A DNA stretch of 64,000 nt from a bacterium (GCA_021816845.1 JAKAWT010000002.1:141724-205723), one strand, 5' to 3'. Positions 28,542 through 64,000 are shown, counted from the first letter of the stretch. Notes: a model not told the origin generated them from the letters alone. Program-made: numbers and translations.

Positions 28542-30064
28542 TTGTTCACAAGATTTACAATAGGAATTAATGTCTTATTTTCATTTATAATATGCTTTCC
28601 ATGAGTAGTTTTTTCCCAAGAGTAAGGATTGATCACAATTTGATACATGGCTCTAATAGTAGCTATAGAAAGTACTATCCAGTAAATTGGAGATAAAAGT
28701 ATATATTTAACAATTGAAAATCTATCTCTAGAATATGATCCTATCAAATTTAGATATGTAAAGATCAAGTTACCCAGTACAAATGATATAATAGAGATAA
28801 TAAGTATCGGTTCTGGGAAGGATTCCTTAATAAGTGGTGATGATGTGATAAACCATATTAGAAGTAGTACCCAATAAATAAAATTAAATGCATTTACAAT
28901 AACTGTTCCAGGGACTGTTATTAGAAATCCAATAAAATTTTTCCATCCTCCAAGTTCATTTTTAGTTCTTATAGGTTCTCTTAGGTTAACTATACTAGTT
29001 TGTATGAACCCTTTCATCCATCTTGTCCTTTGTTTGATCCAACTATTTATATCTGACGTTGCTTCCTCTTTACTCATAGAATCTAATATACTTGTTCTAT
29101 AACCATTTCTCCTTAATCTAATACCTATATCACAGTCTTCTGCTACATTATAAGGATCCCAACCTCCTATATCTTTTATTGCAGATATTCTAAAGTGTGT
29201 ACTATGGCCTGATAAAGGGATTGGAAAATCAAATTTTTGTAATCCAGGTAAGAATAAATCATAGTAAAATGAAAATTCGCTATTGAATAAACCAGTTATT
29301 ATATTTTGATCTGCATTATAATGATCTAATCTTGTTTGAAAACATGCAATGTCTGGTTTCTTTAAGAATGCTAAATATGCTTTTTTAAGTTGATTTTTAT
29401 CTGGGATTATTTCCGCATCATAAATTACTAAAAACTCTCCTTTTAATTCTTGTAATGCTACATTTAAAGCTTTGGGTTTAGTTTTGGGTTCTACATTTGG
29501 TAGTATAAGTTTTCTAAAATTAGATGGGAAGTTTGCCCTATCTATTGCAGCTATAGTCTCATCATCATATTCTTCTAATGTTATTATAAATTCTACTTTG
29601 TCTTTAGGATAATCAATATCCATCATAGCTTTTTTGATTTGGTTAACAACCTCACTTTCTTTATATAATGGTATAATTACTGAATAATATGGTAAATCAT
29701 TCTCATTGATTAAGCCTATATCTTTATTAGATATATGTATAAAATCTGTTGTCTTAGATTTTAATACTACAATCACTTTGAAAATCATGAAAATGAAATA
29801 AGTTATTGCTATAAATGACGAGATATATATGTATATAGAAATATTACTGAAGTATGATAACAATGTTAAAGAAATTAATATTATGGCAATAATTATAGCT
29901 AAATTTTCTATTGGTTCTTTGTAAATATGTCTTTTTGAAGAATAGATTAATGGTAAATATAAATAATCTTGAGTATTTTTATAATTTACTGTATAGAATT
30001 TTTCTAGTCTAGGAATAGACATTATTTTTTTTACTATATTCTTTAGATTATTATATATAACCAT
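28538..30064 (-). CDS. Processive family-2 glycosyltransferase (cellulose/chitin/hyaluronan-synthase-like beta-glycan synthase)
   Basis: N-terminal TMs, GT-A core with DAE (D,D,D) motifs and the processive-synthase signature QRTRW (QxxRW), then C-terminal TM bundle. No PilZ domain evident. Confidence 0.7.
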   Translation of the reverse strand: MVIYNNLKNIVKKIMSIPRLEKFYTVNYKNTQDYLYLPLIYSSKRHIYKEPIENLAIIIAIILISLTLLSYFSNISIYIYISSFIAITYFIFMIFKVIVVLKSKTTDFIHISNKDIGLINENDLPYYSVIIPLYKESEVVNQIKKAMMDIDYPKDKVEFIITLEEYDDETIAAIDRANFPSNFRKLILPNVEPKTKPKALNVALQELKGEFLVIYDAEIIPDKNQLKKAYLAFLKKPDIACFQTRLDHYNADQNIITGLFNSEFSFYYDLFLPGLQKFDFPIPLSGHSTHFRISAIKDIGGWDPYNVAEDCDIGIRLRRNGYRTSILDSMSKEEATSDINSWIKQRTRWMKGFIQTSIVNLREPIRTKNELGGWKNFIGFLITVPGTVIVNAFNFIYWVLLLIWFITSSPLIKESFPEPILIISIISFVLGNLIFTYLNLIGSYSRDRFSIVKYILLSPIYWIVLSIATIRAMYQIVINPYSWEKTTHGKHIINENKTLIPIVNLVNK

Positions 30065-36187: not shown

Positions 36188-36512
36188 GATATTCTTTTAG
36201 TGCTAATGCATTATTATACTCTGATGATGATGAATAGATTAAAATAATATCTTTATCCTCACTAAGGTCTATGATTTTATCTATATTACCTTTATTATTA
36301 TGTAGTTCTGTAAAATATTTTTTTCTAAACTCATCCCATTTTAAAGGATCATGATTAAACCAAACTCTTAGTCCATCTGATGGAGCTATCTCTTTTAACC
36401 ATAAATCGACTTTTAAATCCTTTTTCTTGACACCCCTTGGCCAAAATCTCTCTACAAGTATCCTGTAGCCACTAGTATTTATTCTATCATAAGCTCTATT
36501 TAGCATGATCAT
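36162..36512 (-). CDS. DUF488 (YeaO-like) family protein
   Basis: LVERFWPRGVKKKDLKVDLWLKEIAPSDGLRVWFNHDPLKWDEF matches the DUF488 signature (WPRG...W...APS..LR.WF.HDP). Confidence 0.6.
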   Translation of the reverse strand: MIMLNRAYDRINTSGYRILVERFWPRGVKKKDLKVDLWLKEIAPSDGLRVWFNHDPLKWDEFRKKYFTELHNNKGNIDKIIDLSEDKDIILIYSSSSEYNNALALKEYLESNNNHV

Positions 36513-38182
36513 TAATTTAATATTTTTGTTTGATATAAATTTTGTATTATAAAACCACGTTTCTTGTAATATTCTCTTGTCCCAATTCCAGATATAACTG
36601 ATAAACGATCAAATCCATTATCTTTTGCAATCTTCTCAGCTTTAATTAACAACTTTGTACCAATACCTAAATGTTGGGCTGATTTCTCTAAATCTTGATT
36701 AGATATATCATGAATTCCTAATGCTTGCCCGTATACATGTACTTCTCTTATTATTGCACTATTATTTAATTCATCCAGATAATGACCTTTATCTTTAGGT
36801 ATAGATAATCTTAAAAATCCTAAGAGTTTAGATCCAGGTCTAGATTCGGATGACTTATCGATTGTATTATAGGATAAGAATTTTTCAAAAGTTTTTGTTG
36901 TTTCATATTCATATACATCATATGTAACATCTCCTATATTACTATCTTTTATTTCTCGACAACGTATGCACTCACATTTTAAACCTTTTTCTTTCATTCT
37001 CTGTTGGACAATTTGTCTTAAGTTTGTTTTTTTATTACCATCCATTATGTATGTTGATGGAATATCTCTAATAATTCTATTTATTCTGGAGTATTTTTTA
37101 ACTTGGGATTTTGCATGGATTAGAATGTCTATTAATTCTTCCTCAGAGTATGGTTGGTATTTTTTTGATTTCCAATAGTCATATAATTCTGCTGTCTCAA
37201 TTATTGAGCAAGGATATATCTTTATTTCATCTGGCATATATGATTTATCTTTATATATGGTTTCAATATCTAATTTATCTATATCAGAGATTGATCCATA
37301 TAAATTTGGCATCCAATGTATCTGTATTTTAAATCCAAAACTACGTAATATGTCTATAGCATTCTTTTGATCTTTGGATGTCTCTCCTCGTTTATTGATT
37401 TCTAATATTCTATCATTTGTACTTTGTATTCCAAGTTGTATTTTGGTAGCACCAAGTTCTCTTAAATGCTTTGCCTCAGGATTACTTATCCTATCTGGTC
37501 TTGTCTCTAATGTTATTCCTATACACCTATATTTAGAGTTTTGATTAATTTCTTGTGCACTCTTAAGCATCCTTATATTCCAATCTGCTGGTGGATCTAT
37601 CTCATCTTGGTGAGTGTCAAAATTAACAACATTCTTTGTATATTTTGCTGTTCTATATTTATATTTAAATTCATTCATTGCATCTAGACATCTTTTTATA
37701 AACCATTCCTGGTATATTCTTGGGTATACAGACCATGTTCCACCTAAAACTAAGAGTTCTATTTTTTCAGTTTTGTGCCCTATATTTTGTAAAGCTTGAA
37801 TTCTATTTTTAACTTGAAGATAAGGATCAAATTTATTCATTAGTGCTCTTTGAGCACCTGGTTCACGTGATAAATAACTTTTTGGCATCATCACGTCATC
37901 TGGACAAAAAATACATTTTCCTGGACATGGAAAAGGTTTAGTTAATACTGTTATAGGTACTACTCCAGATATTGTCCTTATAGGTTTCATTTGAATTTTT
38001 TGGATTAGAGAGTAATCCTCTTTAATATTTCTATCTTTACATAATTTTTTATATAGAGTTATGACTCTACTTTGTGATAAATTATGCTCTCTAAGTAGTG
38101 TCCTTATATTAACTTCTGGGTTATCAAGAAGTGTTTCTATTATATCCTGGTTTGAAAAATTTAAAGGTAAAGGCTGTGACAT
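36512..38182 (-). CDS. elp3: Elp3-like radical SAM / GNAT acetyltransferase (tRNA wobble uridine modification family)
   Basis: Radical SAM cluster motif CPGKCIFCP (Cx4Cx2C) in the N-terminal half. C-terminal GNAT domain (HQGLGTKLLIKAEKIAKDNGFDRLSVISGIGTREYYKKRGF). 556 aa as in archaeal/bacterial Elp3. Confidence 0.8.
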   Translation of the reverse strand: MSQPLPLNFSNQDIIETLLDNPEVNIRTLLREHNLSQSRVITLYKKLCKDRNIKEDYSLIQKIQMKPIRTISGVVPITVLTKPFPCPGKCIFCPDDVMMPKSYLSREPGAQRALMNKFDPYLQVKNRIQALQNIGHKTEKIELLVLGGTWSVYPRIYQEWFIKRCLDAMNEFKYKYRTAKYTKNVVNFDTHQDEIDPPADWNIRMLKSAQEINQNSKYRCIGITLETRPDRISNPEAKHLRELGATKIQLGIQSTNDRILEINKRGETSKDQKNAIDILRSFGFKIQIHWMPNLYGSISDIDKLDIETIYKDKSYMPDEIKIYPCSIIETAELYDYWKSKKYQPYSEEELIDILIHAKSQVKKYSRINRIIRDIPSTYIMDGNKKTNLRQIVQQRMKEKGLKCECIRCREIKDSNIGDVTYDVYEYETTKTFEKFLSYNTIDKSSESRPGSKLLGFLRLSIPKDKGHYLDELNNSAIIREVHVYGQALGIHDISNQDLEKSAQHLGIGTKLLIKAEKIAKDNGFDRLSVISGIGTREYYKKRGFIIQNLYQTKILN

Positions 38183-52707: not shown

Positions 52708-55700
52708 ATGATAGTATCACCTGCAATGTATAAGTATAAAATATTTATAACGTTACTTGTAATATTATTCCTTGCCCCATTATTACACACTAATGCTTTT
52801 GCACAAAGCTATACACCTTCTGAGGTTAGATCCATGAGTGTAGATTCCAAAATAGTTCCAACAGGAAATGGTACTGGTTACTATATAGTATCGAACCAAG
52901 GGATAGTTCAATCTCTAGGATCTGCTAAATATTATGGAGGATTAAATAATATAGCTGTAGTACCAAATCATAATGTTGTAGATATGGTTGTAACACCAAA
53001 TGATGGAGGTTATTATATTTTAACTCAAGACGGAGGTGTTTATAACTTTGGAAATGCTCAGTTCTATGGATCTCTATATAACGTACAGACTGTACCAGTA
53101 AGAGTTGCTGTAAGCATGAAACTTACAACAACAGGAAATGGATATTATATAATGACACAAGAAGGTGGTGTATACACCTTTGGTGATGCAGTGTTCCAAG
53201 GGTCTGCATATACTTACCAGAATTCTCCTACAGTTAATGCTGTATCTTTCCAAGTAACAAATGGAGGTTACTATATCCTAGAGCAAAATGGTGGTGTATA
53301 TACTTTTGGTAGTGCACCTTTCTATGGATCAATGTTTAATGTAGTGGGGAATATTAACAGAACATCAATTGGTATGCAGTTAACTTCTCAAGGTTATATG
53401 ATACAAACTTCTGATGGTGGGGAGTATACATTTGGTAATGCACAGTTTTATGGAACTATCTTTAATATTGTAAATCCTCAATCAACAGTAGTTTCAGATA
53501 CAGCAGTACTTCCAGGAGATGGAGGTTATTACGTTCTTGTATCCAGTGGAGCAGTATATACATTTGGTGATGCAATATATCTTGGTAATTACACAACTTT
53601 GGGAATTTCTAATATAGGGGTTATTACAAATACAGGACCTTTAACGGTTACTGGAGATACTGCTTTGAATGGCAATCTATCTGTTATGGGTGTTATTACA
53701 GCACCATTACTTGATATAAACAATATCAATATATTAAGCAATATATATTTTACAGGTTCAAATCCACAGATAGATACAGGATCAAATTCTCTTACTTTTA
53801 ATGGTAATGGTTCTACAGGTAGTGTATGTTTCTTTAAATGTGCAAATAACGTATCTTCAGGAGGTTCCCTATCACTTCTTGGTGGAGAGTTACTTGGTGG
53901 AAATCTTAATGTAGGTGGGAGTAGTACTAATATACTAAATGGTAATACTGAGTTTAAAGATAACCTAACAGTATCTGGTAATACAAATACTTCTGGTATA
54001 ACGAATACTGGTCTTCTTACAAACAATGGTAATACTATGCTGAATGGAACTTTGAATATAACAGGAAATACAACTTTAAGTAGTAATTTACAGGTTAGCG
54101 GTAATACAAATACTCACGGTATAACGAATACAGGTTCATTGTTTAATGGTGGAAATTTATTTGTTGCTGGTAATGTATTTGTTAGAAATAATCTAGAGGT
54201 ACTCCATAATGTACATATAAATCATAATCTAAAAGTTAAAGGTCATACCAAGACTCATGGTATATATAATAAAGGAACGTTGAGGAATAATGGCATTATA
54301 GAAGCTTTTGGTACTAGAAGAACTAGATATACTTCTTTGGTTTCATTTGGTAAAACAAAGTTATTTGGTGAATTGAATGTTATCGGTCAAACTACAACTC
54401 GAGGTATAAAGAATAATGGGAATATTTCTAATAGTGGTGATTTATCAGTTCATGGAAACGTTGCATTCTTTTCTGATATGGAAGTAGCTGGTAGTACAAC
54501 TATTGGAGGCATATTAAATGTTACAGGCCAATCAACATTTGTTGGTAATGTTACTTTAGCTCAAGACCTCAATGTTGGAGGAATAACAACTACTAATGGG
54601 TTGATAAATAATGACAATTCGGGAATCACAGGTAATTTAAATGTTGGAGGTACTGGAACATTTGGAGGTAATTTAACTCTGACAGGCACCAATCCTCAAG
54701 TCAACTCTACAGGGTCAAATAATCTGACATTAAATGGTAATAGTAATACAGGAGATACATGTTTCTACTCATGCGGTAATAATATAATACCTAACGGATC
54801 TATATCATTCTTGGGTGGAGCCTTACTTGGAGGAAATCTTAATGTAGGTGGCAGCAGTACAAACATATTTAATGGAAATACAGAATTTAAAAATAATATT
54901 ACTGTATCTGGAAGTACAATAACTAATGGTGTAACTAATAATGGTTTGCTTACAAATAACGGGAATATTACATCTACAGGTACAGGAGTATTTTCTTCAT
55001 TTGTATCAGCATCTTTATATCAAATAGCTGGTGTTACAGTATTATCTAATGCAGGTACACAGAATATATTCTTAGGTCAGGCTGCAGGATTAAGTAATAC
55101 TACTGGATCTAATAACTCATTTATAGGTATGCAGGCAGGACAATATAACACGACAGGATCTAATAACACATTCGTGGGTCAAGATGCAGGATCAGGTTCA
55201 GGAATTCAACTTAATAATTCTACAGCAATAGGATACCAGGCATTAGTATCAGAGAGTAATGCAGTGGTACTTGGAGGTATAGGTTCAAATGCAGTAAATG
55301 TAGGTATAGGTACATCTACACCAAATGCAACATTAGAAATTACTGGGGTATCTGGTCAATCCCAAAATTATTTTGATATAACATCAAATGGAGCACCATC
55401 TGGTAATGTATTTTCTATAGATATGAATGGAAATGTAACTATATCTGGTCATATAATAGTACAAGGTGTAACACCAACATTAGTTGAATATCATGGTAAT
55501 ACAGCATCCTTGTCTGATGCCACAGATACATCAGGAGTCCTTCAGTTACAACTGAATGGTATAGCTGTTAGTGGATCAGAAGTTGAGGTTGTATTTGCAA
55601 AACCTTATCAAATTCCTCCTAATGTTGTAATATCACCTGATAATCCTCAAGCTGCGTTAGCATTTTCTAACCAAGATGCTTATGTCATATCATCTAAGAC

Positions 55701-55785
55701 AGGTTTTACTATAGTATTTGGTAGTTTCATTGGACCTCTACCTGCTCTATATGATTATCTTTGGACTTATCAAGTAATACAATAA
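52708..55785 (+). CDS. Large secreted surface protein: signal peptide, six-blade beta-propeller repeat region, duplicated Cys-containing beta-helical modules, and C-terminal phage-tail-fibre-like domain
   Basis: Signal peptide (LLVILFLAPLLHTNAFA). Six repeats of about 45 aa of the form GGYYILTQDGGVYTFGxAxFYGS. Two about 95-aa modules share TGSNxLTxNGN...C(F/Y)xxC...LLGGNLNVGGSSTNIxNGNTEFKxN. C-terminal GxxNT(T)GSNN(S/T)F(I/V)G repeats plus SNAVVLGG...VGIGTSTPNATLEITG resemble tail-fibre / endosialidase-chaperone-type domains. Confidence 0.6.
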   Translation: MIVSPAMYKYKIFITLLVILFLAPLLHTNAFAQSYTPSEVRSMSVDSKIVPTGNGTGYYIVSNQGIVQSLGSAKYYGGLNNIAVVPNHNVVDMVVTPNDGGYYILTQDGGVYNFGNAQFYGSLYNVQTVPVRVAVSMKLTTTGNGYYIMTQEGGVYTFGDAVFQGSAYTYQNSPTVNAVSFQVTNGGYYILEQNGGVYTFGSAPFYGSMFNVVGNINRTSIGMQLTSQGYMIQTSDGGEYTFGNAQFYGTIFNIVNPQSTVVSDTAVLPGDGGYYVLVSSGAVYTFGDAIYLGNYTTLGISNIGVITNTGPLTVTGDTALNGNLSVMGVITAPLLDINNINILSNIYFTGSNPQIDTGSNSLTFNGNGSTGSVCFFKCANNVSSGGSLSLLGGELLGGNLNVGGSSTNILNGNTEFKDNLTVSGNTNTSGITNTGLLTNNGNTMLNGTLNITGNTTLSSNLQVSGNTNTHGITNTGSLFNGGNLFVAGNVFVRNNLEVLHNVHINHNLKVKGHTKTHGIYNKGTLRNNGIIEAFGTRRTRYTSLVSFGKTKLFGELNVIGQTTTRGIKNNGNISNSGDLSVHGNVAFFSDMEVAGSTTIGGILNVTGQSTFVGNVTLAQDLNVGGITTTNGLINNDNSGITGNLNVGGTGTFGGNLTLTGTNPQVNSTGSNNLTLNGNSNTGDTCFYSCGNNIIPNGSISFLGGALLGGNLNVGGSSTNIFNGNTEFKNNITVSGSTITNGVTNNGLLTNNGNITSTGTGVFSSFVSASLYQIAGVTVLSNAGTQNIFLGQAAGLSNTTGSNNSFIGMQAGQYNTTGSNNTFVGQDAGSGSGIQLNNSTAIGYQALVSESNAVVLGGIGSNAVNVGIGTSTPNATLEITGVSGQSQNYFDITSNGAPSGNVFSIDMNGNVTISGHIIVQGVTPTLVEYHGNTASLSDATDTSGVLQLQLNGIAVSGSEVEVVFAKPYQIPPNVVISPDNPQAALAFSNQDAYVISSKTGFTIVFGSFIGPLPALYDYLWTYQVIQ

Positions 55786-56523: not shown

Positions 56524-56703
56524 ATGAATATTAAAGTGATTTGTCCAGTATGTGATGCAGATATACTACTTAATAATGATACCAAGGTGTCTGAAGTTAT
56601 TAAATGTACTGAATGCGGAACAGAGCTTGTAGTTGATAAAATTGATGGAACGGATACACTACTATCTATAGCTCCTGAGGTTGAAGAAGATTGGGGGGAA
56701 TAG
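56524..56703 (+). CDS. lysW: Amino-group carrier protein LysW (AmCP)
   Basis: Hand-translated 59 aa MNIKVICPVCDADILLNNDTKVSEVIKCTECGTELVVDKIDGTDTLLSIAPEVEEDWGE. Zn-ribbon CxxC...CxxC and the diagnostic C-terminal EDWGE tail. Below the cutoff of the supplied ORF track. Confidence 0.8.
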   Translation: MNIKVICPVCDADILLNNDTKVSEVIKCTECGTELVVDKIDGTDTLLSIAPEVEEDWGE

Positions 56704-56705
56704 GT

Positions 56706-57557
56706 ATGTTTACTCTTGGTATACTACATTCCACCATTAGATCTGAAGAGAAACTATTAGATAAAGAAGCACAAAGTAGAGGTATTAAGGTAGAACTTAT
56801 TGATGTTAGAAACAAAATTCTAAGCCCCAATTTTAATAATTTTAAGATTGATGTTGCTCTTGAAAGGTGTGTATCAACAGTTCAGGGATCATACGCAATA
56901 AGTTTTCTAGAATCCTTGAATATTAAAGTCATAAACTCTTCCTTGGTAGCGAATATTTGTCAGGATAAGTTTCTGACATCATTAGTTTTAAATAAGGCTA
57001 ATGTTAATACTCCGCCATTTGCATTAGTATTCAGCGTAGATGAAGCTAAGGAAGCTGTAAGAGGGCTTGGTGGATTTCCCATTGTTATAAAACCAAATCT
57101 AGGCTCTTGGGGTCGATTACTTGCAAAAATAAATGATGATGATGCACTAGAATCTGTTATTGAACATAAGAATGTACTTGGTTCTCCACAACAAAAACCC
57201 ATATATATTCAAAAATATATAGATAAACCAGGTAGAGATATACGAGTTTTTGTTATAGATGGTAAGGCTATATGTGCAATTTATAGACAATCCAACCATT
57301 GGATTACCAATACAGCAAGAGGTGGTAAGGCTTTAAATTGTCCATTAACAAAGGATCTTATTGATATATCCAAAAATACTTCTATAGCTTGTGGAGGAGG
57401 TATTTTAGCCATAGATGTATTCGAGACTGATAATGGTCTTAGTATCAACGAGGTTAACCATACTATGGAATTTAAAAATTCAGAAATACCTACAGGGGTT
57501 AGTATTTCTGGTGCAATTATAGATTATTGTATAAAGGTATACAAAAATTATGATTAA
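56706..57557 (+). CDS. lysX: RimK/LysX-type ATP-grasp ligase (LysW--amino acid ligase)
   Basis: ATP-grasp fold (PIVIKPNLGSWGRLL; IYIQKYIDKPGRDIRVFVIDGK; EVNHTMEF). Starts 3 nt after the lysW stop; probable start ATG 56706. Confidence 0.75.
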   Translation: MFTLGILHSTIRSEEKLLDKEAQSRGIKVELIDVRNKILSPNFNNFKIDVALERCVSTVQGSYAISFLESLNIKVINSSLVANICQDKFLTSLVLNKANVNTPPFALVFSVDEAKEAVRGLGGFPIVIKPNLGSWGRLLAKINDDDALESVIEHKNVLGSPQQKPIYIQKYIDKPGRDIRVFVIDGKAICAIYRQSNHWITNTARGGKALNCPLTKDLIDISKNTSIACGGGILAIDVFETDNGLSINEVNHTMEFKNSEIPTGVSISGAIIDYCIKVYKNYD

Positions 57558-58677
57558 AGTTTCAATTATTGGTGGATCTGGATATGCAGGAGGAGAATTA
57601 CTAAGGATTCTTCTAAACCACCCAAAAGTTACAATAGGACAAGTCACTTCTAGACAATTTGCTGGAGAATTAGTCTCATCTGTTCACCCAAATTTAAGAA
57701 AAATGACCAATTTAACATTTACCCATCCAGATGGTTCCCATCCAGATGGTTCCCATCCAGATGGTTCCCGTCCAGATGGACATCCAGATGTATATCCAGA
57801 TAATTTATCACATTGTGACCTTCTTTTTGTAGCTTTACCCAATGGTATATCAATGGGTAAAATGAGAAATTATATGGATGTTGCAGATAGAATCATTGAT
57901 CTTGGATCAGATTTTAGAATTCATGATAAAGATATCTTTTCAAAATGGTACAAGAAAAATCACGAAGATCCAGAATTACTTAATAAATTTGTATATGGTA
58001 TCACAGAACTACACAGAAAAGAGATAAGAGAAGCTAAATATGTGTCATGTGGAGGTTGTGAGGCAACTGCCTCTATACTTGCTCTATACCCACTTTATAA
58101 GAACAATATTATTAAGGACGAAGTAGTAATAAATGCTATCATGAGTAGTTCCCAATCCGGAATGTCAGTATCCTTATCATCCCATCATCCAGAACGTTCT
58201 GGAGTAGTAAGGTCATATATGCCAACTGGACACAGACATACAGCAGAGATAGAACAAGAGTTAGTAGGGATAAAACCATTAATATCAGCTACATCCATTG
58301 ATATAGTCAGAGGACTACATGTTACAATAAACACCACACCAAAAATTCCAATCACAGAAAAAGATATCTGGAAAATCTACAGACAAGAATATGGAGATGA
58401 ACCATTTATAAGGATAGTAAAAGAGCGTAGTGGAATCTATAGATACCCAGAACCAAAGATCTTGCAAGGCACTAACTATTGTGATATCGGGTTTGAACTT
58501 GACACAAGCCTGCTTGACACAAGTCCACCTGGTACAAGTACAAATAGACTAGTTATAATGGCTGCTATAGATAATTTGGTTAAAGGTACAGCAGGACAGG
58601 CAGTACAAGATATGAATGTGATGTTTGGGTTTGAAGAACGAGAAGGACTAGAATTTACAGGCTTACACCCTATATAA
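57550..58677 (+). CDS. argC: N-acetyl-gamma-glutamyl-phosphate / LysW-aminoadipyl-phosphate reductase (ArgC/LysY) with internal HPDGS tandem-repeat insertion
   Basis: MIKVSIIGGSGYAGGELLRIL NAD-binding N-terminus, catalytic Cys region VSCGGCEATAS, C-terminal dimerisation domain. Overlaps lysX by 8 nt. Confidence 0.85.
   Translation: MIKVSIIGGSGYAGGELLRILLNHPKVTIGQVTSRQFAGELVSSVHPNLRKMTNLTFTHPDGSHPDGSHPDGSRPDGHPDVYPDNLSHCDLLFVALPNGISMGKMRNYMDVADRIIDLGSDFRIHDKDIFSKWYKKNHEDPELLNKFVYGITELHRKEIREAKYVSCGGCEATASILALYPLYKNNIIKDEVVINAIMSSSQSGMSVSLSSHHPERSGVVRSYMPTGHRHTAEIEQELVGIKPLISATSIDIVRGLHVTINTTPKIPITEKDIWKIYRQEYGDEPFIRIVKERSGIYRYPEPKILQGTNYCDIGFELDTSLLDTSPPGTSTNRLVIMAAIDNLVKGTAGQAVQDMNVMFGFEEREGLEFTGLHPI
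57723..57806 (+). repeat. In-frame tandem repeat (15-nt unit CCATCCAGATGGTTC x3 plus degenerate copies) encoding HPDGS-HPDGS-HPDGS-RPDG-HPDVYPD inside argC/lysY
   Basis: Directly visible perfect 15-nt tandem copies at about 57723-57767, followed by two diverged copies. Confidence 0.85.
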
Positions 58678-58682
58678 AGATT

Positions 58683-60311
58683 ATGAATGTATCAGAACTT
58701 ATAGTTAAAATATTAGAAAATGAAGGAGTTGATACTATTTTTGGTATTCCTGGAGAAGAAAATGTGACTTTTATGGAAGCTTTATATAAAAGTCATATCA
58801 GGTATATACAAACTGCAGATGAGAGAGGTGCAGCTTTTATGGCTGCCTCATATGGAAGATTACGTGAAAAACCAGGTGTTGTGTTTACAACATTAGGACC
58901 TGGAGCATTGAATATCCCAAATGGGGTATCATTCGCCAATATGGCAGGTATACCACTAATAGCATTAACCTGGCAAAGAGGCATTATACAAAGTAATAAA
59001 GATAACGGTTTCATGTATGTAGATATAAAAAAGGTTTTAAAACCAATAGTGAAATACCAAAGTACTATATCATCTTCTAAAGATGTTATAAATACAATAC
59101 AAAAAAGTTTTTTAATATCAAAAACTCCTAGTCAAGGATCATGCCATATTGAAATACCAGAAGATATTGGAAAACAACAGGTTAAAGAAGATATAATACT
59201 GAAAAAGCCAGTTGTCATAAAATCAAAAAAAATCAATCTTCCAGACATAAATAAAGCTGGGGATATAATTTCAAGTTCCAAAACTCCTCTTATACTTATA
59301 GGTTTTAATGCTAGTAATAATCAAGTAGCTAGGTTAATTAGAGACTTTTCTCAAAAAGCAGATATACATGTTATTACTACTCCTATGGCTCAAGGTATGC
59401 TACCATCTGACCATCCCCTATCCTTGTATTCACTTATTCATACTTCAGATACCCTACTTCAAAAATACTTAAATAGTGTTGATACTATTATATCAATTGG
59501 CTATAACCCAATTGAATTTTCTCCTAGATTTTTTAACAGCAATAAATCTAAGAATATAATACATATAAATTCAGTAAATGCTAAAATTCATCCAAACTAT
59601 ACCCCACAAATAGAAATAATTGGGAAAATTGATGAGGCTTTGGAATTATTGATAGAAAGAGTTGATAAAAAAGAAGGATCTTCAATAGTATTAAATGAAC
59701 TTAAAGAAAAACTAATAAAAAAAAGAAACCATGATTATGCATATCCTATAAAACCAGAATATTTGGTAAATATGCTAAAAAGGGTATCTAGAAACGCTAT
59801 CATAGTACATGACAATGGGATGCATAAACTATGGGTAACCAAGTTTTTTCGCCCTGATAACCCTAATCAAATTATTCTTGATAATGCACTAGCCAGTATG
59901 GGATCTGGAGTTCCCAATGGTATATCTACAAAGTTAATGTATCCAGAGAAAGATGTGATTGTTAATACTGGGGAGGGTGGACTATTAATGTGTCTTGGTG
60001 AGATTTCTACTGCTATATCATTAGATATTGCAATTGTAATATTGGTTTGGCGTGATGGAGGCTATGGAATGATCAATTGGCATCAAAAATCAAATAATCT
60101 ACACTCTTTTGGTGTAACTGTGAAAAGTCCTGATTTTGTGAAATTTATAGAAAGTTTTGGGGGCGTTGGGTATAGAATCAATAATGCTAAAGAATTAGAA
60201 GGTGTCCTTATTAAAGCTTTAAATAATAATAAGTTAACCATTATAGATTGTCCAGTTGATTATTCTGAGAATATTAAAGTATTTAATAAAAATAATTATG
60301 AAGAGGATTAG
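58683..60311 (+). CDS. Thiamine-diphosphate-dependent enzyme of the acetolactate synthase large-subunit family
   Basis: N-terminal Pyr domain (LIVKILENEGVDTIFGIPGEENVTFMEAL...TADERGAAFMAASYGRLREKPGVVFTTLGPGALN) and central FAD/TH3-like domain. C-terminal PP domain has a divergent metal motif GEGG-x24-RD in place of GDG-x24-NN. Confidence 0.8.
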   Translation: MNVSELIVKILENEGVDTIFGIPGEENVTFMEALYKSHIRYIQTADERGAAFMAASYGRLREKPGVVFTTLGPGALNIPNGVSFANMAGIPLIALTWQRGIIQSNKDNGFMYVDIKKVLKPIVKYQSTISSSKDVINTIQKSFLISKTPSQGSCHIEIPEDIGKQQVKEDIILKKPVVIKSKKINLPDINKAGDIISSSKTPLILIGFNASNNQVARLIRDFSQKADIHVITTPMAQGMLPSDHPLSLYSLIHTSDTLLQKYLNSVDTIISIGYNPIEFSPRFFNSNKSKNIIHINSVNAKIHPNYTPQIEIIGKIDEALELLIERVDKKEGSSIVLNELKEKLIKKRNHDYAYPIKPEYLVNMLKRVSRNAIIVHDNGMHKLWVTKFFRPDNPNQIILDNALASMGSGVPNGISTKLMYPEKDVIVNTGEGGLLMCLGEISTAISLDIAIVILVWRDGGYGMINWHQKSNNLHSFGVTVKSPDFVKFIESFGGVGYRINNAKELEGVLIKALNNNKLTIIDCPVDYSENIKVFNKNNYEED

Positions 60312-60312
60312 C

Positions 60313-61638
60313 ATGAATTATTTGATAGATAGTTTTCTAAATTATGGGTTATGTAGTAATAAAGCCTGTCAATTATATATGTCTCCATTCTATTCAGAGC
60401 AAAGATGCCCTATCTGTAATGAACCATCTATTATCCCATCACAGCTTGCACCAATAATAAATAAAAATTCAACAGGTAACATTTATAAACGGTATTTTAA
60501 AGACTATGTCGTGGAGACAATAGATAAAAATGATTTTCTAGAATTATCTAATGGTATAGGTAATACAGATATGATACTGAATAAAAATTTACAAAAATGG
60601 ACAGGAGTAAATAACTTATACTTAAAAGAAGAATATTCTAATCAATCTGGATCCTTCAAAGATAGAGGTACCTTTATGGCAATAGCGTTACTAGAGAAGA
60701 AAAATAATTATAACCCCTTTATACTTGGTACCGTATCTACGGGTAATATGGCAATATCAACTGCGTATATGGTTAATTATATAAACATAGAAACTGGATC
60801 TAAGCTTAAAAGTTTTGTTGTTATAGATAAAGATACTAGGGATGAAAAAATTATGGAGATAGAAAAAGCAGCTGGTAAAACTGGTACTACAATTTTTATA
60901 GTTGATGGTAAATATTACAAATTACATAAAGAAGTATATAAAGCATGTCTTAGATTAAGGGAAGGTAAAGTTAGTGCCTATGCTCAATTAACAGATGATA
61001 TATTTCGCATATCTGGTTATGCCACTTTATTTGGAGAAATTGTTGAACAGGTTAATACACCTGACATAATTATTCTACCTGTTGCATCAGGTGCTTTGTT
61101 TAGGGTTGCTGTTTTTGCACTCGAGTCTTTATATAAAAATAAATATATTAAAAAAATTCCTCACGTGGTATTAGTTCAGGAACAAGGTGCAGACCCTATT
61201 GTTCAGTCCTTCCAGAACAATTTATCCAATATATCCAATATAGAGAATCTTGTCATTAAAAAAAATAATTTTCAAAATAGGCTGATAGCTAGTGGAATTG
61301 ATGTTAGTTTTTCTCACAGTGGATTACCAACTTTAGATATATTAAAGGAGAATTATCACAAATGTATTAGTGTGACATCAAATGAAATAAAATGTGCTTA
61401 TGATGAATTGAACAAAGAAGGTATTTTTGCTGAAGAAGCTTCTGCTGCAGCACTCGCTGCTGTATTAAGATTAAGAAAAGATTCATATATAAAAGGAAAT
61501 ATGGAAGTTGTGTGTGTGCTCACTGGAGGGAACATTAATAAGAGACAAATTAAGGATTCTGGAAATAATTCAAAAAGAGTTTTTTGTAATATAAAGGATC
61601 TTCAAGAAGTAATTATAAGTACATTTAATAATGGATAA
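60313..61638 (+). CDS. Threonine-synthase-like PLP (fold type II) enzyme with N-terminal zinc-ribbon
   Basis: PLP-lysine motif SFKDRG and a glycine-rich loop region. N-terminal CSNKAC...CPIC Zn-ribbon. SD-like AAGAGGA 6-12 nt upstream; start 2 nt after the ThDP-enzyme stop. The supplied ORF track starts at 60256 in the same frame. Confidence 0.75.
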   Translation: MNYLIDSFLNYGLCSNKACQLYMSPFYSEQRCPICNEPSIIPSQLAPIINKNSTGNIYKRYFKDYVVETIDKNDFLELSNGIGNTDMILNKNLQKWTGVNNLYLKEEYSNQSGSFKDRGTFMAIALLEKKNNYNPFILGTVSTGNMAISTAYMVNYINIETGSKLKSFVVIDKDTRDEKIMEIEKAAGKTGTTIFIVDGKYYKLHKEVYKACLRLREGKVSAYAQLTDDIFRISGYATLFGEIVEQVNTPDIIILPVASGALFRVAVFALESLYKNKYIKKIPHVVLVQEQGADPIVQSFQNNLSNISNIENLVIKKNNFQNRLIASGIDVSFSHSGLPTLDILKENYHKCISVTSNEIKCAYDELNKEGIFAEEASAAALAAVLRLRKDSYIKGNMEVVCVLTGGNINKRQIKDSGNNSKRVFCNIKDLQEVIISTFNNG

Positions 61639-62884
61639 TATACATTCACTAGTAGAGAATATAAGAAAGGATGAAGAAGAATCTGTTAATACGTTACATC
61701 TTACAAGTAATGAGAATAGAACATCTAAACTTGCACAGTCTTTTTTATCTTCTCCTTTATCTTTTAGATATATTTTTGGATCAACCCCTAGTGATGTTGT
61801 TGAGACTGTCACAGGCCTTATGTTGAAGGGTATGCCAGGTGTTGTGAGCTTTGATAATATTGCTCAACAGGTAGCACAAGAGATGTTTCATGCTTCTTTA
61901 TCTAATTTTAGACCAACTTCTGGTCTGCACACAACTTTTTGTACAATAACTGGTGCTACTGATGTCGGTGATGTGATTTATTCTATAGATCCAGAGGATG
62001 GAGGTCATTTTGCAACAAGACACTTGGTACAGCGTTGTGGTAGAAAGTCTGAATTTATACCATGGGATAACAATAATTTATCTTTGAATCTAGATCTCTT
62101 TAAAAAGAAGATTAAAAAGATACCTCCAGATGTAATATTATTTGAACATGGAACACCACTATTTAACCTTCCTATAATGGAAGTTAGAGAGATTGTTGGA
62201 GATAAAGTGTTGATAGTTTATGATGCGTCACACACATTAGGCCTTATCGCTGGAGGTTTTTTTCAAGATCCACTTAGAGAGGGTTGTGATATATTACAAG
62301 GGAATACACACAAAACATTTCCAGGTCCTCAGAAAGGGATGATACATTTTAAAAATCTAGAATTTGGCCAGAAAGTTATTAAATCTATTGGTGATGGACT
62401 TGTATCGAGTCAACACTTACATCATGCAATTGCTGAGTATATTACAGTTTTAGAGGTTAAAGAATTTGGACATGAATATGCTAAACAAATGATTTTAAAT
62501 GGGAAAAAACTTGCTGAAAGTCTAGCTCAGGAAGGATTTGATCTTTTCAACAGGGATGGTGTATATACTACATCTCATGAATTACTTATTAAAGGTAGTT
62601 CAACGGGAGGACATTTTCAAGGATGCAGGAGGCTACTTCAATCAGGAATTAGTGCTAATGCTAGAGTAGCATTCAAAACTGAGGTCGTAAGGTTAGGAAC
62701 ACAAGAAGTTACAAGGAGAGGTATGATGGAAGGTGATATGGAATATATAGCGAAACTATTTAGGAGAATTATATTAGATAAAGAACCGATTGATAATGTT
62801 AAGAAAGATGTTATTTCTTTTAACAATAGTTTTCTAAATATACATTATTCATTCGATAAGGAATTTAATTATTGGCAATATTAA
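61631..62884 (+). CDS. Serine hydroxymethyltransferase-like PLP (fold type I) enzyme, divergent
   Basis: SHMT-alignable blocks (LTSNENRTS; GGHFATRH; DASHTLGLIAGG...THKTFPGPQKGMI with the PLP-Lys in THKT). Lacks a clear canonical folate-binding N-terminal block. Overlaps the upstream gene by 8 nt (ATGGATAA). Confidence 0.7.
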   Translation: MDNIHSLVENIRKDEEESVNTLHLTSNENRTSKLAQSFLSSPLSFRYIFGSTPSDVVETVTGLMLKGMPGVVSFDNIAQQVAQEMFHASLSNFRPTSGLHTTFCTITGATDVGDVIYSIDPEDGGHFATRHLVQRCGRKSEFIPWDNNNLSLNLDLFKKKIKKIPPDVILFEHGTPLFNLPIMEVREIVGDKVLIVYDASHTLGLIAGGFFQDPLREGCDILQGNTHKTFPGPQKGMIHFKNLEFGQKVIKSIGDGLVSSQHLHHAIAEYITVLEVKEFGHEYAKQMILNGKKLAESLAQEGFDLFNRDGVYTTSHELLIKGSSTGGHFQGCRRLLQSGISANARVAFKTEVVRLGTQEVTRRGMMEGDMEYIAKLFRRIILDKEPIDNVKKDVISFNNSFLNIHYSFDKEFNYWQY

Positions 62885-63702
62885 CTATGTTACTTATAAA
62901 AATTGGAGGAGGAGAAAAAATTAATATTGATTATATATCTCAAGATATAAGGACTCTTATTAAGGAAGGAAGAAAAGTAATAATAGTACATGGAGCAAGT
63001 GCTACAAGAGATAAAATAGCAAAGAGACTTAATATTCAAACACGAACGATTACTTCACCTTCCGGTATAAGTAGTGTTTACACAGATGGGGATGCAATTG
63101 ATGTATTTTTGATGGCATATGCGGGGTTAATTAATAAAAAGATAGTTGCAAATCTTCAAAAACATAATGTTAATGCTATTGGATTATCTGGTGTTGATGG
63201 TAGATTATGGGAGGCAAAAAGGAAAAATTCTGGATATTTTATTGAAAATGAGAAGACAATGTTTTATAAGGATAATCTAACAGGTAGAGTAGATAAAATT
63301 AATGTATCTTTATTAAATTTGCTGCTTGATAATAAATATGTTCCTGTAATTTGTCCTCCAGCAATCAGCTTTGAAAATGATATTGTGAACACTGATAATG
63401 ATTTTGCAACTGCAACAATGGTTAGGGAGTTAAAGATAAATGAGATGGTTGTTTTATTTGAAGCTCCGGGAATATTGAGGGATTTAAATGACAAATCAAG
63501 TGTTATAAAAAAAATCAAAAAATCTGAAATAGATGAATATATGGTCTATGCTCAAGGAAGGATGAAGAAAAAGTTATTAGGGACAAAGAAAGCTTTCGAG
63601 TCTGATCTTTTTGAAAAAATGTATTGTGGAGATGGTAGGGTGAAACATCCTATCATTAATGTTTTAAATGGTAAAGGGACAACCATAGATTATGGATATT
63701 AA
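62872..63702 (+). CDS. lysZ: Amino-acid kinase family protein (LysZ/ArgB-type, LysW-aminoadipate/glutamate kinase)
   Basis: LIKIGGGE and VIIVHGAS motifs of the acetylglutamate-kinase family; 276 aa. Overlaps the upstream gene by 13 nt. Confidence 0.75.
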   Translation: MAILTMLLIKIGGGEKINIDYISQDIRTLIKEGRKVIIVHGASATRDKIAKRLNIQTRTITSPSGISSVYTDGDAIDVFLMAYAGLINKKIVANLQKHNVNAIGLSGVDGRLWEAKRKNSGYFIENEKTMFYKDNLTGRVDKINVSLLNLLLDNKYVPVICPPAISFENDIVNTDNDFATATMVRELKINEMVVLFEAPGILRDLNDKSSVIKKIKKSEIDEYMVYAQGRMKKKLLGTKKAFESDLFEKMYCGDGRVKHPIINVLNGKGTTIDYGY

Positions 63703-63709
63703 TGTAAAG

Positions 63710-64000
63710 GAACAACAGTATGTCATAAATACATACACAAATAGAAAAATAACTTTAGTTAGAGGAGATTTGGTGTATCTTTTTGATAGTAATAATGAGA
63801 AATATTTAGATTTTATGACCAATTATGGTGTTAACATTTTTGGATACAACCAAAAAACAATAACTGTAGGATTATCTGATCAATTAAGACAATTAACAAC
63901 ACTGCATGGTAGCTTTACAAATGATATTAGAGCTAGAGCATCAGAGGAGATAATAAAACGTTGTGGAGGACTATATAGTGGAGTATTTTGGTCCAATTCT
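63710..64000 (+). CDS. lysJ: Class III aminotransferase (LysJ/ArgD-type), 3' end outside window
   Basis: N-terminus VRGDLVYLFDSNNEKYLDFMTNYGVNIFGY matches the ArgD/LysJ start (RGxGxxLxDxxGxxYLDFxxGxxVxxxGH). Confidence 0.65.

What the first reader, a model, noticed from the sequence alone, without database searches (positions are those of the whole stretch)
52708..55785. 1025-aa secreted fibre protein combining a six-blade propeller, duplicated Cys-pair modules and a phage-tail-fibre-like C-terminus
The architecture reads directly from repeats. Six about 45-aa blades follow GGYYILTQDGGVYTFGxAxFYGS (nt about 52843-53608). Two about 95-aa paralogous modules, each with a conserved Cys-x3-Cys (CFFKC / CFYSC) and the LLGGNLNVGGSSTNI block, lie at about 53750-54040 and about 54680-54975. 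A C-terminal block of GSNNxF(I/V)G repeats and an SNAVVLGG...GIGTSTPNATLEITG motif (about 55018-55330) is characteristic of phage tail fibres and the intramolecular-chaperone domain of endosialidase-type fibres. In a streamlined, possibly episymbiotic organism, a host-cell-attachment fibre built from phage-like parts would be a key surface structure. It is also the window's largest gene.
Basis: seen in the sequence. Interest (0 to 1): 0.6.

Follow-up and report, generated by a model that had tools for sequence, protein, structure and literature searches.

The report
Lectin-tipped surface fibre of a Patescibacterium

Summary
ORF 52708-55785 (+) encodes 1025 aa with one N-terminal signal peptide, six ~43-aa blades, two paralogous C-x3-C modules (E 5e-53) and a GxxN[ST]FxG repeat block ending in VGIGTSTPNATLEITG.

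The repeat block plus VGIGT motif is the beta-helix and "capping loop" unit of the mosaic adhesive trimer (MAT) fibres of Bdellovibrio. A profile of it hits Bd2133, Bd3182 and Bd2439 structures (E 2e-6 to 4e-3). 27 of 61 relatives follow this unit with Peptidase_S74.

The propeller is a distant RCC1-like domain that otherwise sits on secreted Patescibacteria and Actinomycetes enzymes. The gene is chromosomal, has native codon usage and has no phage neighbours.

Best reading: a non-S74, MAT-like adhesin fibre, which is a new variant of a known kind. Trimerisation, polarity and ligand are inferred.

The parts
52708..52806 (+). Signal peptide, aa 1-33: n-region MYKYK, h-region IFITLLVILFLAPLL, c-region HTNAFA|QS
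   Evidence: This is the only hydrophobic 15-mer window with KD>1.8 in the protein. The orthologue L003p has the same layout...HTHVFA|QD. No lipobox Cys, no C-terminal TM segment or LPxTG. Cleavage is inferred, not predicted by a dedicated tool.
52843..53616 (+). Six-repeat RCC1-like beta-propeller, aa 46-303 (blades of ~43 aa)
   Evidence: Blade alignment and shuffle control. A profile of 14 homologues hits the RCC1-like domains of HERC1 4o2w (E 1.7e-6), HERC2 and RPGR. RCC1_2 is sub-threshold in the query (16.8 bits) but above threshold in the relative P0095 (30.6 bits). 172 retrieved proteins share the domain, mostly Patescibacteria GH18, S8 and SpoIID enzymes plus Actinomycetes proteins. 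The blade count is inferred from the repeat count; no structure was predicted.
53617..53976 (+). Linker plus Cys module 1, aa 304-423 (C374-x3-C378; LLGGELLGGNLNVGGSSTNI)
   Evidence: Paralogous to module 2. 77% identical to the orthologue's single copy. No other homologue turned up in the 5.8-billion-protein search or the metagenome scan. Fold unknown.
53977..54642 (+). Stalk, aa 424-645: four to five ~41-48-aa repeats G-x-T-x-T-x-G-I-x-N-x-G...L-x-V
   Evidence: Repeat alignment, mean identity 40%. 39% identical over 173 columns to the passenger domain of the trimeric autotransporter P0087, which has ESPR, YadA_head, YadA_stalk and YadA_anchor. Sub-threshold Bactofilin beta-solenoid hit, E 7.5e-5. 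PHROG 7964 and 5070 (unknown function), E 3e-7 and 1e-6.
54643..54975 (+). Cys module 2, aa 646-756 (C685-x3-C689; LLGGALLGGNLNVGGSSTNI)
   Evidence: 74% DNA identity to module 1. The AlphaFold2 model has pLDDT <55 here. Absent from the orthologue.
54976..55347 (+). MAT-like beta-helix unit, aa 757-880: entry segment TGTGVFSSFVSASLYQIAGVTVLSN, YadA-head-like turns, and the capping-loop motif VGIGTSTPNATL (aa 865-876, nt 55300-55335)
   Evidence: A profile of this unit hits solved Bdellovibrio MAT fibres: Bd2133 8OND (E 2.1e-6), Bd3182 8OJN/8ONB/8ONC (2.5e-4) and Bd2439 8OL4/8ONF (3.7e-3). Thousands of relatives in the exhaustive search. YadA_head E 0.0025, sub-threshold. AF2 pLDDT is 75-87 with short strands every ~17 residues. 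Foldseek on that model found nothing.
55348..55452 (+). Connector strands, aa 881-915 (VSGQSQNYFDITSNGAPSGNVFSIDMNGNVTISGH)
   Evidence: Conserved in both copies of the unit in the orthologue. It occupies the position where S74 relatives start their SD.RLK.NI chaperone.
55453..55782 (+). C-terminal tip, aa 916-1025: H-type-lectin-like beta-sandwich

Best explanation
The gene encodes a Sec-exported, cell-surface fibre adhesin of the mosaic-adhesive-trimer (MAT) type, of the non-S74 class, in a Patescibacteria-like bacterium.

Shown:
- One N-terminal signal sequence.
- A six-repeat RCC1-like propeller.
- A repeat-built, beta-rich shaft: two lineage-specific C-x3-C modules, autotransporter-like stalk repeats, and one MAT-type beta-helix unit with its capping-loop motif.
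- A C-terminal beta-sandwich that looks like an H-type lectin.

Inferred mechanism:
1. After export, three chains assemble into a fibre, as MAT, phage and autotransporter shafts built from these units do.
2. The conserved N-terminal end (propeller plus Cys module 1, 77-85% identical to the orthologue) holds the fibre on the producer's envelope, either by binding a wall polymer or through an uncleaved signal anchor.
3. The fast-diverging C-terminal lectin tip (about 34-44% identical) projects outward and binds a glycan on the host or partner cell. H-type lectins bind GalNAc/Gal-type sugars at protomer interfaces of a trimer (from my own knowledge of the family), which would suit a three-fold fibre tip.
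4. Because there is no S74 chaperone, the tip itself would have to nucleate or cap trimerisation, as described for the non-S74 Bdellovibrio MATs.
For: - ORF and repeats.
- Single N-terminal hydrophobic segment with an AxA site and no other anchor.
- MAT link: the profile of aa 772-891 hits Bd2133, Bd3182 and Bd2439 crystal-structure sequences at their beta-helix and capping-loop segments, with identities confirmed in PMC10769870. That paper defines S74 and NS74 MATs with lectin-like tips and shows surface display and glycan binding for Bd2439.
- Tip diversity among relatives: 27/61 S74, 4/61 T9SS sorting domain, and ~30 with no Pfam match in the tail that accounts for a tip.
- No S74 in the query.
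- H-type lectin tip. The same tip closes a 1418-aa chromosomal fibre protein, P0086.
- Mosaic evolution: the orthologue in a Patescibacteria MAG keeps the propeller (85%) and Cys module 1 (77%), but has no stalk or second Cys module, two MAT units instead of one, and a diverged tip.
- Native gene: GC3 0.15 against 0.13-0.22 for neighbours. Housekeeping neighbours and no phage genes in 64 kb.
- Stalk similarity to a real trimeric autotransporter passenger.
- Precedent that glycan-binding adhesins and an RCC1-repeat propeller matter for Patescibacteria host binding: PMC10633639 and PMC11623550.
Against: - Trimerisation is untested. Only monomer models could be made, and both were of low overall confidence (pLDDT 54 and 58).
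- Foldseek found no match for the shaft model.
- The conserved ~130-aa N-terminal domain that all 21 Bdellovibrio MATs share is replaced here by a propeller, so strict MAT membership fails on that feature.
- Polarity is uncertain. The same propeller is usually C-terminal on secreted hydrolases (132 of 172), and an RCC1-type propeller is a candidate host adhesin in TM7x, so the propeller could be the host-binding end.
- The organism's lifestyle is inferred only from the Patescibacteria labels on relatives. The window also carries a LysW-type biosynthesis cluster that is atypical for that group.
- No expression, localisation or ligand data exist.
Confidence: 0.6

Rival explanations
1. It is a monomeric beta-solenoid surface or wall-associated structural protein (S-layer-like or matrix protein). 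Its propeller and lectin-like ends bind the producer's own envelope polymers, and it has no role in recognising another cell.
For: The stalk gives sub-threshold Bactofilin and FapA beta-solenoid hits. The monomer AF2 model of the repeat block is locally confident on its own. The propeller is a common appendage of secreted wall-active enzymes. The window encodes a GT2+GH8 exopolysaccharide pair that could supply a self ligand.
Against: The shaft unit is homologous to units that are trimeric in every solved case (Bd2133, Bd3182, Bd2439). The N-conserved, C-variable mosaic pattern against the orthologue is what is expected of a recognition device. Solved H-type lectins are oligomeric glycan receptors (own knowledge).
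Confidence: 0.17
2. It is a tailspike-like polysaccharide depolymerase. The beta-helix shaft would be catalytic against a host capsule or wall polymer, and the propeller and lectin-like domain would act as carbohydrate-binding modules.
For: The tip model also resembles the C-terminal domains of capsule- or LPS-degrading phage tailspikes (LKA1 gp49, phi297 gp61, AP22 gp54). The propeller family is fused to GH18, S8 and SpoIID enzymes. Two of the five phage hits are annotated endo-N-acetylneuraminidase.
Against: No catalytic family was detected by Pfam, NCBIfam or PHROGs. The matched phage segments are the repeat turns, not a catalytic domain. Shaft units of this type are non-enzymatic in the solved MATs (PMC10769870).
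Confidence: 0.1
3. It is a phage or prophage tail fibre with an endosialidase-type intramolecular chaperone (Peptidase_S74) that cleaves itself off after trimerisation.
For: The module is shared with many S74-bearing proteins: 27/61 relatives, plus P0165 and P0115. There are weak hits to phage tail-fibre genes.
Against: No PF13884 hit and no SDxxxK motif in the query or the orthologue. The C-terminus is a different domain. The protein has a Sec signal peptide, which virion proteins lack. There are no phage genes in the 64 kb, and codon usage is native. Only 5 weak matches among 50,697 phage records.
Confidence: 0.03
4. It is a type Vc trimeric autotransporter adhesin.
For: Sub-threshold YadA_head-like turns (E 0.0025), and stalk repeats 39% identical to a real autotransporter's passenger.
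Against: No YadA_anchor beta-barrel and no YadA_stalk coiled coil. The C-terminus is a lectin-like domain. Patescibacteria are generally regarded as monoderm (own knowledge), so there would be no outer membrane to insert into.
Confidence: 0.02

Closest known systems
Mosaic adhesive trimer (MAT) fibres of Bdellovibrio bacteriovorus, non-S74 (NS74) class, e.g. Bd2133 and Bd2439 (Caulton et al., Nat Microbiol 2024, PMC10769870)
   Same: A ~1000-aa exported protein with a signal peptide. Its shaft contains the same beta-helix unit ending in the V-G-x-G/N-small-x-x-P-x-x-x-L capping loop; the profile hits 8OND, 8OJN and 8OL4. A non-S74 beta-sandwich or lectin-type tip replaces the chaperone. It has the mosaic pattern of a conserved proximal end and a swapped distal end. 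It occurs in a bacterium that presumably lives on other cells.
   Different: The N-terminal ~130-aa beta-rich domain common to all 21 Bdellovibrio MATs is replaced by a ~260-aa RCC1-like propeller. The shaft also contains two C-x3-C modules and autotransporter-like stalk repeats that are not described for MATs. The H-type-lectin-like tip is not among the reported tip folds: novel beta-sandwiches, TNF-like, C-type lectin, and FGE, collagen-like or invasin in the paper's Table S3. The host lineage is Patescibacteria, which is not listed there. Only one MAT-type unit is present.
Phage tail fibres and tailspikes with an endosialidase-type intramolecular chaperone (Peptidase_S74, PF13884; K1F endosialidase, T5 L-shaped fibre)
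   Same: The repeat turns and the VGIGT capping loop immediately precede S74 in many relatives. The tip model resembles the C-terminal domains of some tailspikes.
   Different: No S74 domain or catalytic Ser-Lys motif. The protein has a Sec signal peptide. The gene is chromosomal and non-phage. Direct similarity to catalogued phage genes is very weak.
H-type lectins (Helix pomatia agglutinin, SLL-2, discoidin C-domain; Pfam PF09458)
   Different: The query's own score is below Pfam's threshold. The model is of low confidence. Sugar-binding residues and oligomeric state were not verified. Here the domain is the terminal module of a 1025-aa fibre and not a free lectin.
Trimeric autotransporter adhesins (YadA, BadA and similar)
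   Same: YadA-head-like G-x-x-N-[ST]-x-x-G turns, and stalk repeats similar to the passenger domain of P0087.
   Different: No C-terminal membrane anchor, no coiled-coil stalk, and the opposite implied polarity.
RCC1-repeat propeller of the TM7x minor pilin PilX2 (PMC11623550)
   Same: An RCC1-type propeller on an exported Patescibacteria surface protein that is implicated in host binding.
   Different: PilX2 is a pilin with a C-terminal seven-blade propeller. Here there are six short blades at the N-terminus of a fibre. The two sequences were not compared.

Membership tests
MAT superfamily (Caulton et al. 2024) | N-terminal signal peptide | tested here: met
   Single hydrophobic segment at aa 8-30 followed by AFA|QS, conserved in the orthologue. 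No dedicated predictor was available.
MAT superfamily (Caulton et al. 2024) | Conserved ~130-aa beta-rich domain immediately after the signal peptide (present in all 21 HD100 MATs) | tested here: not met
   The region after the signal peptide is a ~260-aa six-repeat RCC1-like propeller.
MAT superfamily (Caulton et al. 2024) | Beta-helix shaft units with the capping-loop motif | tested here: met
   Profile A10 hits Bd2133 (E 2.1e-6), Bd3182 (2.5e-4) and Bd2439 (3.7e-3), aligned on their VGxG/NxxxPxxxL loops. The query has one loop at aa 865-876 and the orthologue has two. The paper's printed motif lacks the hydrophobic residue after V-G that both the query and the aligned Bdellovibrio sequences have.
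MAT superfamily (Caulton et al. 2024) | Intertwined homotrimer | not testable with these tools
   Only monomer AlphaFold2 prediction was available.
MAT superfamily (Caulton et al. 2024) | C-terminal tip that is either S74 or an alternative adhesive fold | tested here: met
   Non-S74, H-type-lectin-like tip.
MAT superfamily (Caulton et al. 2024) | Surface display and a role in contact with another cell | not testable with these tools
   Needs experiments.
Peptidase_S74 intramolecular chaperone | Match to PF13884 | tested here: not met
   No hit at E<=1 for the whole protein or E<=10 for the C-terminal pieces. Relatives score 33-52 bits.
Peptidase_S74 intramolecular chaperone | Catalytic S-D-x-x-x-K (Ser-Lys dyad) after the capping loop | tested here: not met
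   Regex searches found no such motif in the query or the orthologue. The aligned position carries QSQNYFDITSNG.
H-type lectin (PF09458) | Score at or above Pfam's gathering threshold (24 bits) | tested here: inconclusive
   Query 16.5 bits, P0086 15.8 bits, orthologue 25.9 bits. The three are mutually homologous at 30-44% identity.
H-type lectin (PF09458) | H-type lectin beta-sandwich fold | tested here: inconclusive
H-type lectin (PF09458) | Conserved GalNAc/Gal-binding residues at trimer interfaces | not tested
   No residue-level structural alignment was available.
Trimeric autotransporter adhesin (type Vc) | C-terminal YadA_anchor beta-barrel | tested here: not met
   No PF03895 hit, and the C-terminus is the lectin-like domain.
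Trimeric autotransporter adhesin (type Vc) | YadA_head repeats | tested here: inconclusive
   PF05658 E 0.0025, 18.6 bits against a cut-off of 25.
RCC1-like beta-propeller | Sequence relationship to RCC1 repeats | tested here: met
   The profile hits the HERC1, HERC2 and RPGR RCC1-like domains at E 1.7e-6 to 2.4e-4. RCC1_2 scores 30.6 bits in the relative P0095 and 16.8 bits, sub-threshold, in the query.
RCC1-like beta-propeller | Seven blades of 51-68 aa | tested here: not met
   Six repeats of ~43 aa in the query and in all aligned homologues.

The most novel reading that the evidence does not exclude
Patescibacteria (CPR) episymbionts use MAT-like, phage-related trimeric fibres with swappable lectin tips as host-recognition devices, in parallel with the predator Bdellovibrio. 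The short six-blade RCC1-like propeller would be a lineage-wide 'address tag'. It would place both these fibres and a set of secreted wall-degrading enzymes (GH18, S8 protease, SpoIID) at the epibiont-host interface. The C-x3-C modules would be a new shaft element, for example a metal- or disulphide-stabilised node on the three-fold axis.
Probability: 0.25. Interest if true: 0.7.

Novelty: new variant of a known kind. Interest (0 to 1): 0.45.

Why it matters
How ultrasmall episymbiotic bacteria find and hold on to their hosts is largely unknown beyond type IV pili and a few glycan-binding adhesins (PMC10633639, PMC11623550).

This gene is a concrete, testable candidate. It is a fibre whose shaft is homologous to the prey-recognition fibres of Bdellovibrio. 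It has a probable sugar-binding tip, and the tip and shaft are reshuffled between close relatives while the base stays conserved.

It extends the MAT concept in three ways: to a new lineage, to a new tip type (H-type lectin-like) and to a new basal domain (RCC1-like propeller). It also links that propeller to a large set of secreted Patescibacteria enzymes.

It corrects a tempting misannotation as well. The VGIGT...L motif marks the shaft unit, not the S74 chaperone, and more than half of the relatives sampled here lack S74.

Tried and rejected
- Whole-protein scans against Pfam, NCBIfam and PDB sequences gave nothing significant.
- The word-indexed search with the last 166 aa found nothing, and so did the search with the Cys-module alignment.
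- Metagenome and viral contig scans for the tip and for the Cys module found nothing. Both elements look close to lineage-specific, although the pattern-based method is insensitive.
- Profile searches of the tip against PDB sequences gave only spurious esterase and MtrB hits.
As a result the tip model had a 2-row alignment and low confidence.
- MAFFT misplaced short fragment rows twice, so those alignments were discarded and rebuilt.
- Foldseek on the Cys-module-2 + shaft model returned no credible match, so the Cys-module fold remains unknown.
- The exact-sequence cluster look-up did not return the window's proteins, so no source annotation or taxonomy was obtained that way.
- The promoter/terminator scan was no better than shuffles.
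- Considered and rejected: prophage fibre, S74 autoproteolysis, and type Vc autotransporter (see rival explanations). The antisense ORF 53589-54026 was also rejected as a gene.
Full report

Yes. The + strand carries an ATG-initiated ORF at 52708-55785 encoding 1025 aa. It is the longest ORF in the window; the next is 912 aa. The protein is rich in G, N, T and S (47% together) and has only four cysteines, at 374, 378, 685 and 689.

- **Blades.** Six ~43-aa repeats (aa 46-303) share the core GYYILTxxGGVYTFGxAxFYGS. Mean pairwise identity is 39%. A blade HMM scores no more than 4.6 bits on 200 shuffles of the region.
- **Cys modules.** The two modules are paralogues: E 5e-53, 61% identity in the core, and 74% identity at the DNA level.
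- **C-terminal block.** It has three G-x-x-N-[ST/I]-F-x-G turns, a fourth and fifth degenerate turn, and then VGIGTSTPNATLEITG.
- **Signal sequence.** The only hydrophobic segment is aa 8-30, followed by AFA|QS, so this is a Sec signal or signal anchor. There is no C-terminal anchor, lipobox or sortase motif.

**2. Where does it come from?**

- The exact protein lies on a 287-kb contig of the MAG GCA_027425355.1.
- Its neighbours are housekeeping and metabolic genes. Upstream are a rhodanese, a Peptidase_S51 protein and others. Downstream is a LysW/LysX/ArgC cluster.
- Elsewhere in the window are ArgRS, ThyX, a PBP, glycogen synthase and a GT2+GH8 pair.
- There are no phage genes, no tRNA and no Rfam hits.
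- GC3 of the gene (0.15) is within the genome's range of 0.13-0.22.
- The one close relative in 185,579 reference genomes is in a MAG titled "Patescibacteria group bacterium". Most propeller homologues that carry a name are also labelled Patescibacteria.
- I therefore treat the organism as a probable Patescibacterium. This is an inference, and the amino-acid biosynthesis cluster is atypical for that group.

**3. What are the parts?**

*(a) Propeller.*
- A 14-sequence profile hits the RCC1-like domains of HERC1 (E 1.7e-6), HERC2 and RPGR.
- RCC1_2 is above threshold in one relative and below it in the query.
- The domain is very common. The exhaustive search gave 24,090 hits at E<=0.001, shared between this domain and the shaft unit.
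- Among 235 retrieved proteins, 172 have the propeller. In 132 of them it sits at the extreme C-terminus, behind enzyme domains such as GH18, S8 protease and SpoIID.
- None of the 235 combines the propeller with the fibre unit.

*(b) Cys modules.*
- No homologue was found outside the orthologue.
- AlphaFold2 gave pLDDT <55.
- The fold and the role of the C-x3-C pair are unknown.

*(c) Stalk.*
- It is 39% identical to the passenger domain of a bona fide trimeric autotransporter, P0087.
- It gives a sub-threshold beta-solenoid (Bactofilin) signal.
- It hits two PHROGs of unknown function.

*(d) Shaft unit, aa 757-880.*
- A profile of this unit hits the sequences of three solved Bdellovibrio fibres: 8OND (Bd2133, E 2.1e-6), 8OJN/8ONB/8ONC (Bd3182, 2.5e-4) and 8OL4/8ONF (Bd2439, 3.7e-3).
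- The alignment falls on their VG(I/L/V)(G/N)xxxPxxxL segments.
- Caulton et al. (PMC10769870) call these the capping loops of the trimeric beta-helix units of the "mosaic adhesive trimer" (MAT) fibres.
- In that paper, 13 of the 21 Bdellovibrio MATs end in an S74 chaperone. The other 8 ("NS74") end in other adhesive folds: new beta-sandwiches, TNF-like domains and a C-type lectin. The fibres are displayed on the predator's surface, and Bd2439 binds GlcNAc and Proteus LPS.
- The local AlphaFold2 model of the turns is fairly confident (pLDDT 75-87, one short strand per ~17 residues). Foldseek found no match for the whole model.

*(e) Tip, aa 916-1025.*
- H_lectin (PF09458) is the best Pfam hit for the query (16.5 bits), for the orthologue (25.9 bits, above the 24-bit threshold) and for a third copy at the very C-terminus of P0086 (15.8 bits). 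P0086 is a 1418-aa fibre protein encoded beside ParAB, RF-1 and ribosomal protein genes.
- A low-confidence AlphaFold2 model (pLDDT 54 overall, ~65 in the core) is all-beta.
- Foldseek ranks Helix pomatia agglutinin first (E 0.017, prob 0.98), with H. aspersa agglutinin and SLL-2 also in the top five. Interleaved with them and following them are C-terminal domains of phage tailspikes and pyocin fibres.
- Each line of evidence is weak, but they agree.

**4.

- The query has no PF13884 hit and no S-D-x-x-x-K motif.
- In S74-bearing relatives, the chaperone (SDKRLKQNV, SSRRWKTNI and similar) starts 10-15 residues after the capping loop. The query instead continues with QSQNYFDITSNG...NGNVTISGH and then the lectin-like domain.
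- In other relatives, the unit "turns + VGIGT loop" recurs internally up to six times. The motif therefore belongs to the shaft and not to the chaperone.
- Of 61 relatives with the unit, 27 end in S74 and 4 end in T9SS sorting domains. About 30 have no Pfam match in the tail that accounts for a tip. None reaches H_lectin at E<=0.001.
- Direct similarity to catalogued phages is minimal: 5 of 50,697 records, E>=6e-5, in the turns only.

**5. Mosaic evolution**

The 1015-aa orthologue compares with the query as follows:

| Element | Orthologue versus query |
|---|---|
| Propeller | kept, 85% identical |
| Cys module 1 | kept, 77% identical |
| Autotransporter-like stalk | absent |
| Cys module 2 | absent |
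| MAT units | two longer units instead of one |
| Tip | 34-44% identical |

A conserved base with a reshuffled shaft and tip is the pattern that defines MATs and phage fibres.

**6. Mechanism**

*Shown:* export signal, domain order, homologies, and absence of S74.

*Inferred:*
- Trimer formation.
- Retention through the conserved N-terminal end, either by the propeller binding an envelope polymer or by an uncleaved signal anchor.
- Outward projection of a lectin tip that binds a glycan on a partner cell.

The polarity could be the reverse, or both ends could be adhesive. An RCC1-repeat propeller on the TM7x pilin PilX2 is needed for normal host binding (PMC11623550), and the propeller is otherwise attached to enzymes that probably act on foreign cell walls. 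Rivals are a monomeric self-wall protein, a depolymerase, a prophage fibre and a type Vc autotransporter; they are weighed in the Rival explanations section.

**7. Comparison and novelty**

- The protein works like a non-S74 MAT fibre. It meets the MAT features of signal peptide, capping-loop beta-helix unit and alternative adhesive tip.
- It fails the conserved N-terminal domain feature. Its trimeric state and surface display are untested.
- The MAT paper's survey of other lineages lists no Patescibacteria, no H-type lectin tip and no propeller base. No paper in the library links MATs to Patescibacteria.
- I therefore rate it a new variant of a known kind. It is of moderate interest as a concrete candidate for host recognition by an episymbiont, and as a correction to the likely misannotation "S74 tail fibre".

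Noticed in passing
window 57550-58677 (+): The ArgC/LysY-like semialdehyde dehydrogenase carries an odd tandem insert, HPDGSHPDGSHPDGSRPDGHPDVYPDN, in its N-terminal domain (translation).
   Followed up: no
window ~56600-64000 (+); L001 13817-22112: There is a LysW (zinc ribbon) - LysX/RimK - ArgC - TPP enzyme - PALP - SHMT - amino-acid kinase - aminotransferase cluster. This is a LysW-carrier type amino-acid biosynthesis pathway, which is unexpected if the genome is a metabolically reduced Patescibacterium.
   Followed up: no
window 25803-30064 (-): A GT2 glycosyltransferase (507 aa) lies directly upstream of a 911-aa protein with a GH8 domain. The pair looks like a cellulose or exopolysaccharide synthase plus hydrolase, and it could supply a surface glycan.
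   Followed up: no
window 36512-38182 (-): A protein with Radical_SAM + Radical_SAM_C + GNAT acetyltransferase domains, which is an Elp3-like architecture.
   Followed up: no
window 4924-6723 (+): An unusually long (599 aa) ThyX with two Thy1-matching stretches.
   Followed up: no
L004 1-6951: A giant ORF of at least 4233 aa (it runs off the locus) lies just upstream of P0086, the 1418-aa protein that shares the lectin-like tip. It may form a surface-protein cluster next to parAB.
   Followed up: no
window 53589-54026 (-): A 145-aa antisense ORF lies inside the fibre gene. It is a mechanical by-product of the repeat-rich sequence, and nothing supports it as a gene.
   Followed up: partly
proteins P0100, P0110, P0131, P0136, P0141, P0144, P0158 (C-termini): Many fibre-unit relatives end in a short, conserved two-Cys tail of roughly 45 aa ('...G.PGQG.ILKSPDGATC..L.IDN.GAL.....ACP'). 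It has no Pfam match and looks like another uncharacterised tip class of these fibres.
   Followed up: partly
propeller homologues P0029, P0039-P0049 and others: An Actinomycetes version of the same six-blade propeller ([22 protein letters not shown]) is fused to alpha/beta hydrolases, mycosin-type S8 proteases and SpoIID. The domain therefore links Patescibacteria with the phylum of their best-known hosts.
   Followed up: no
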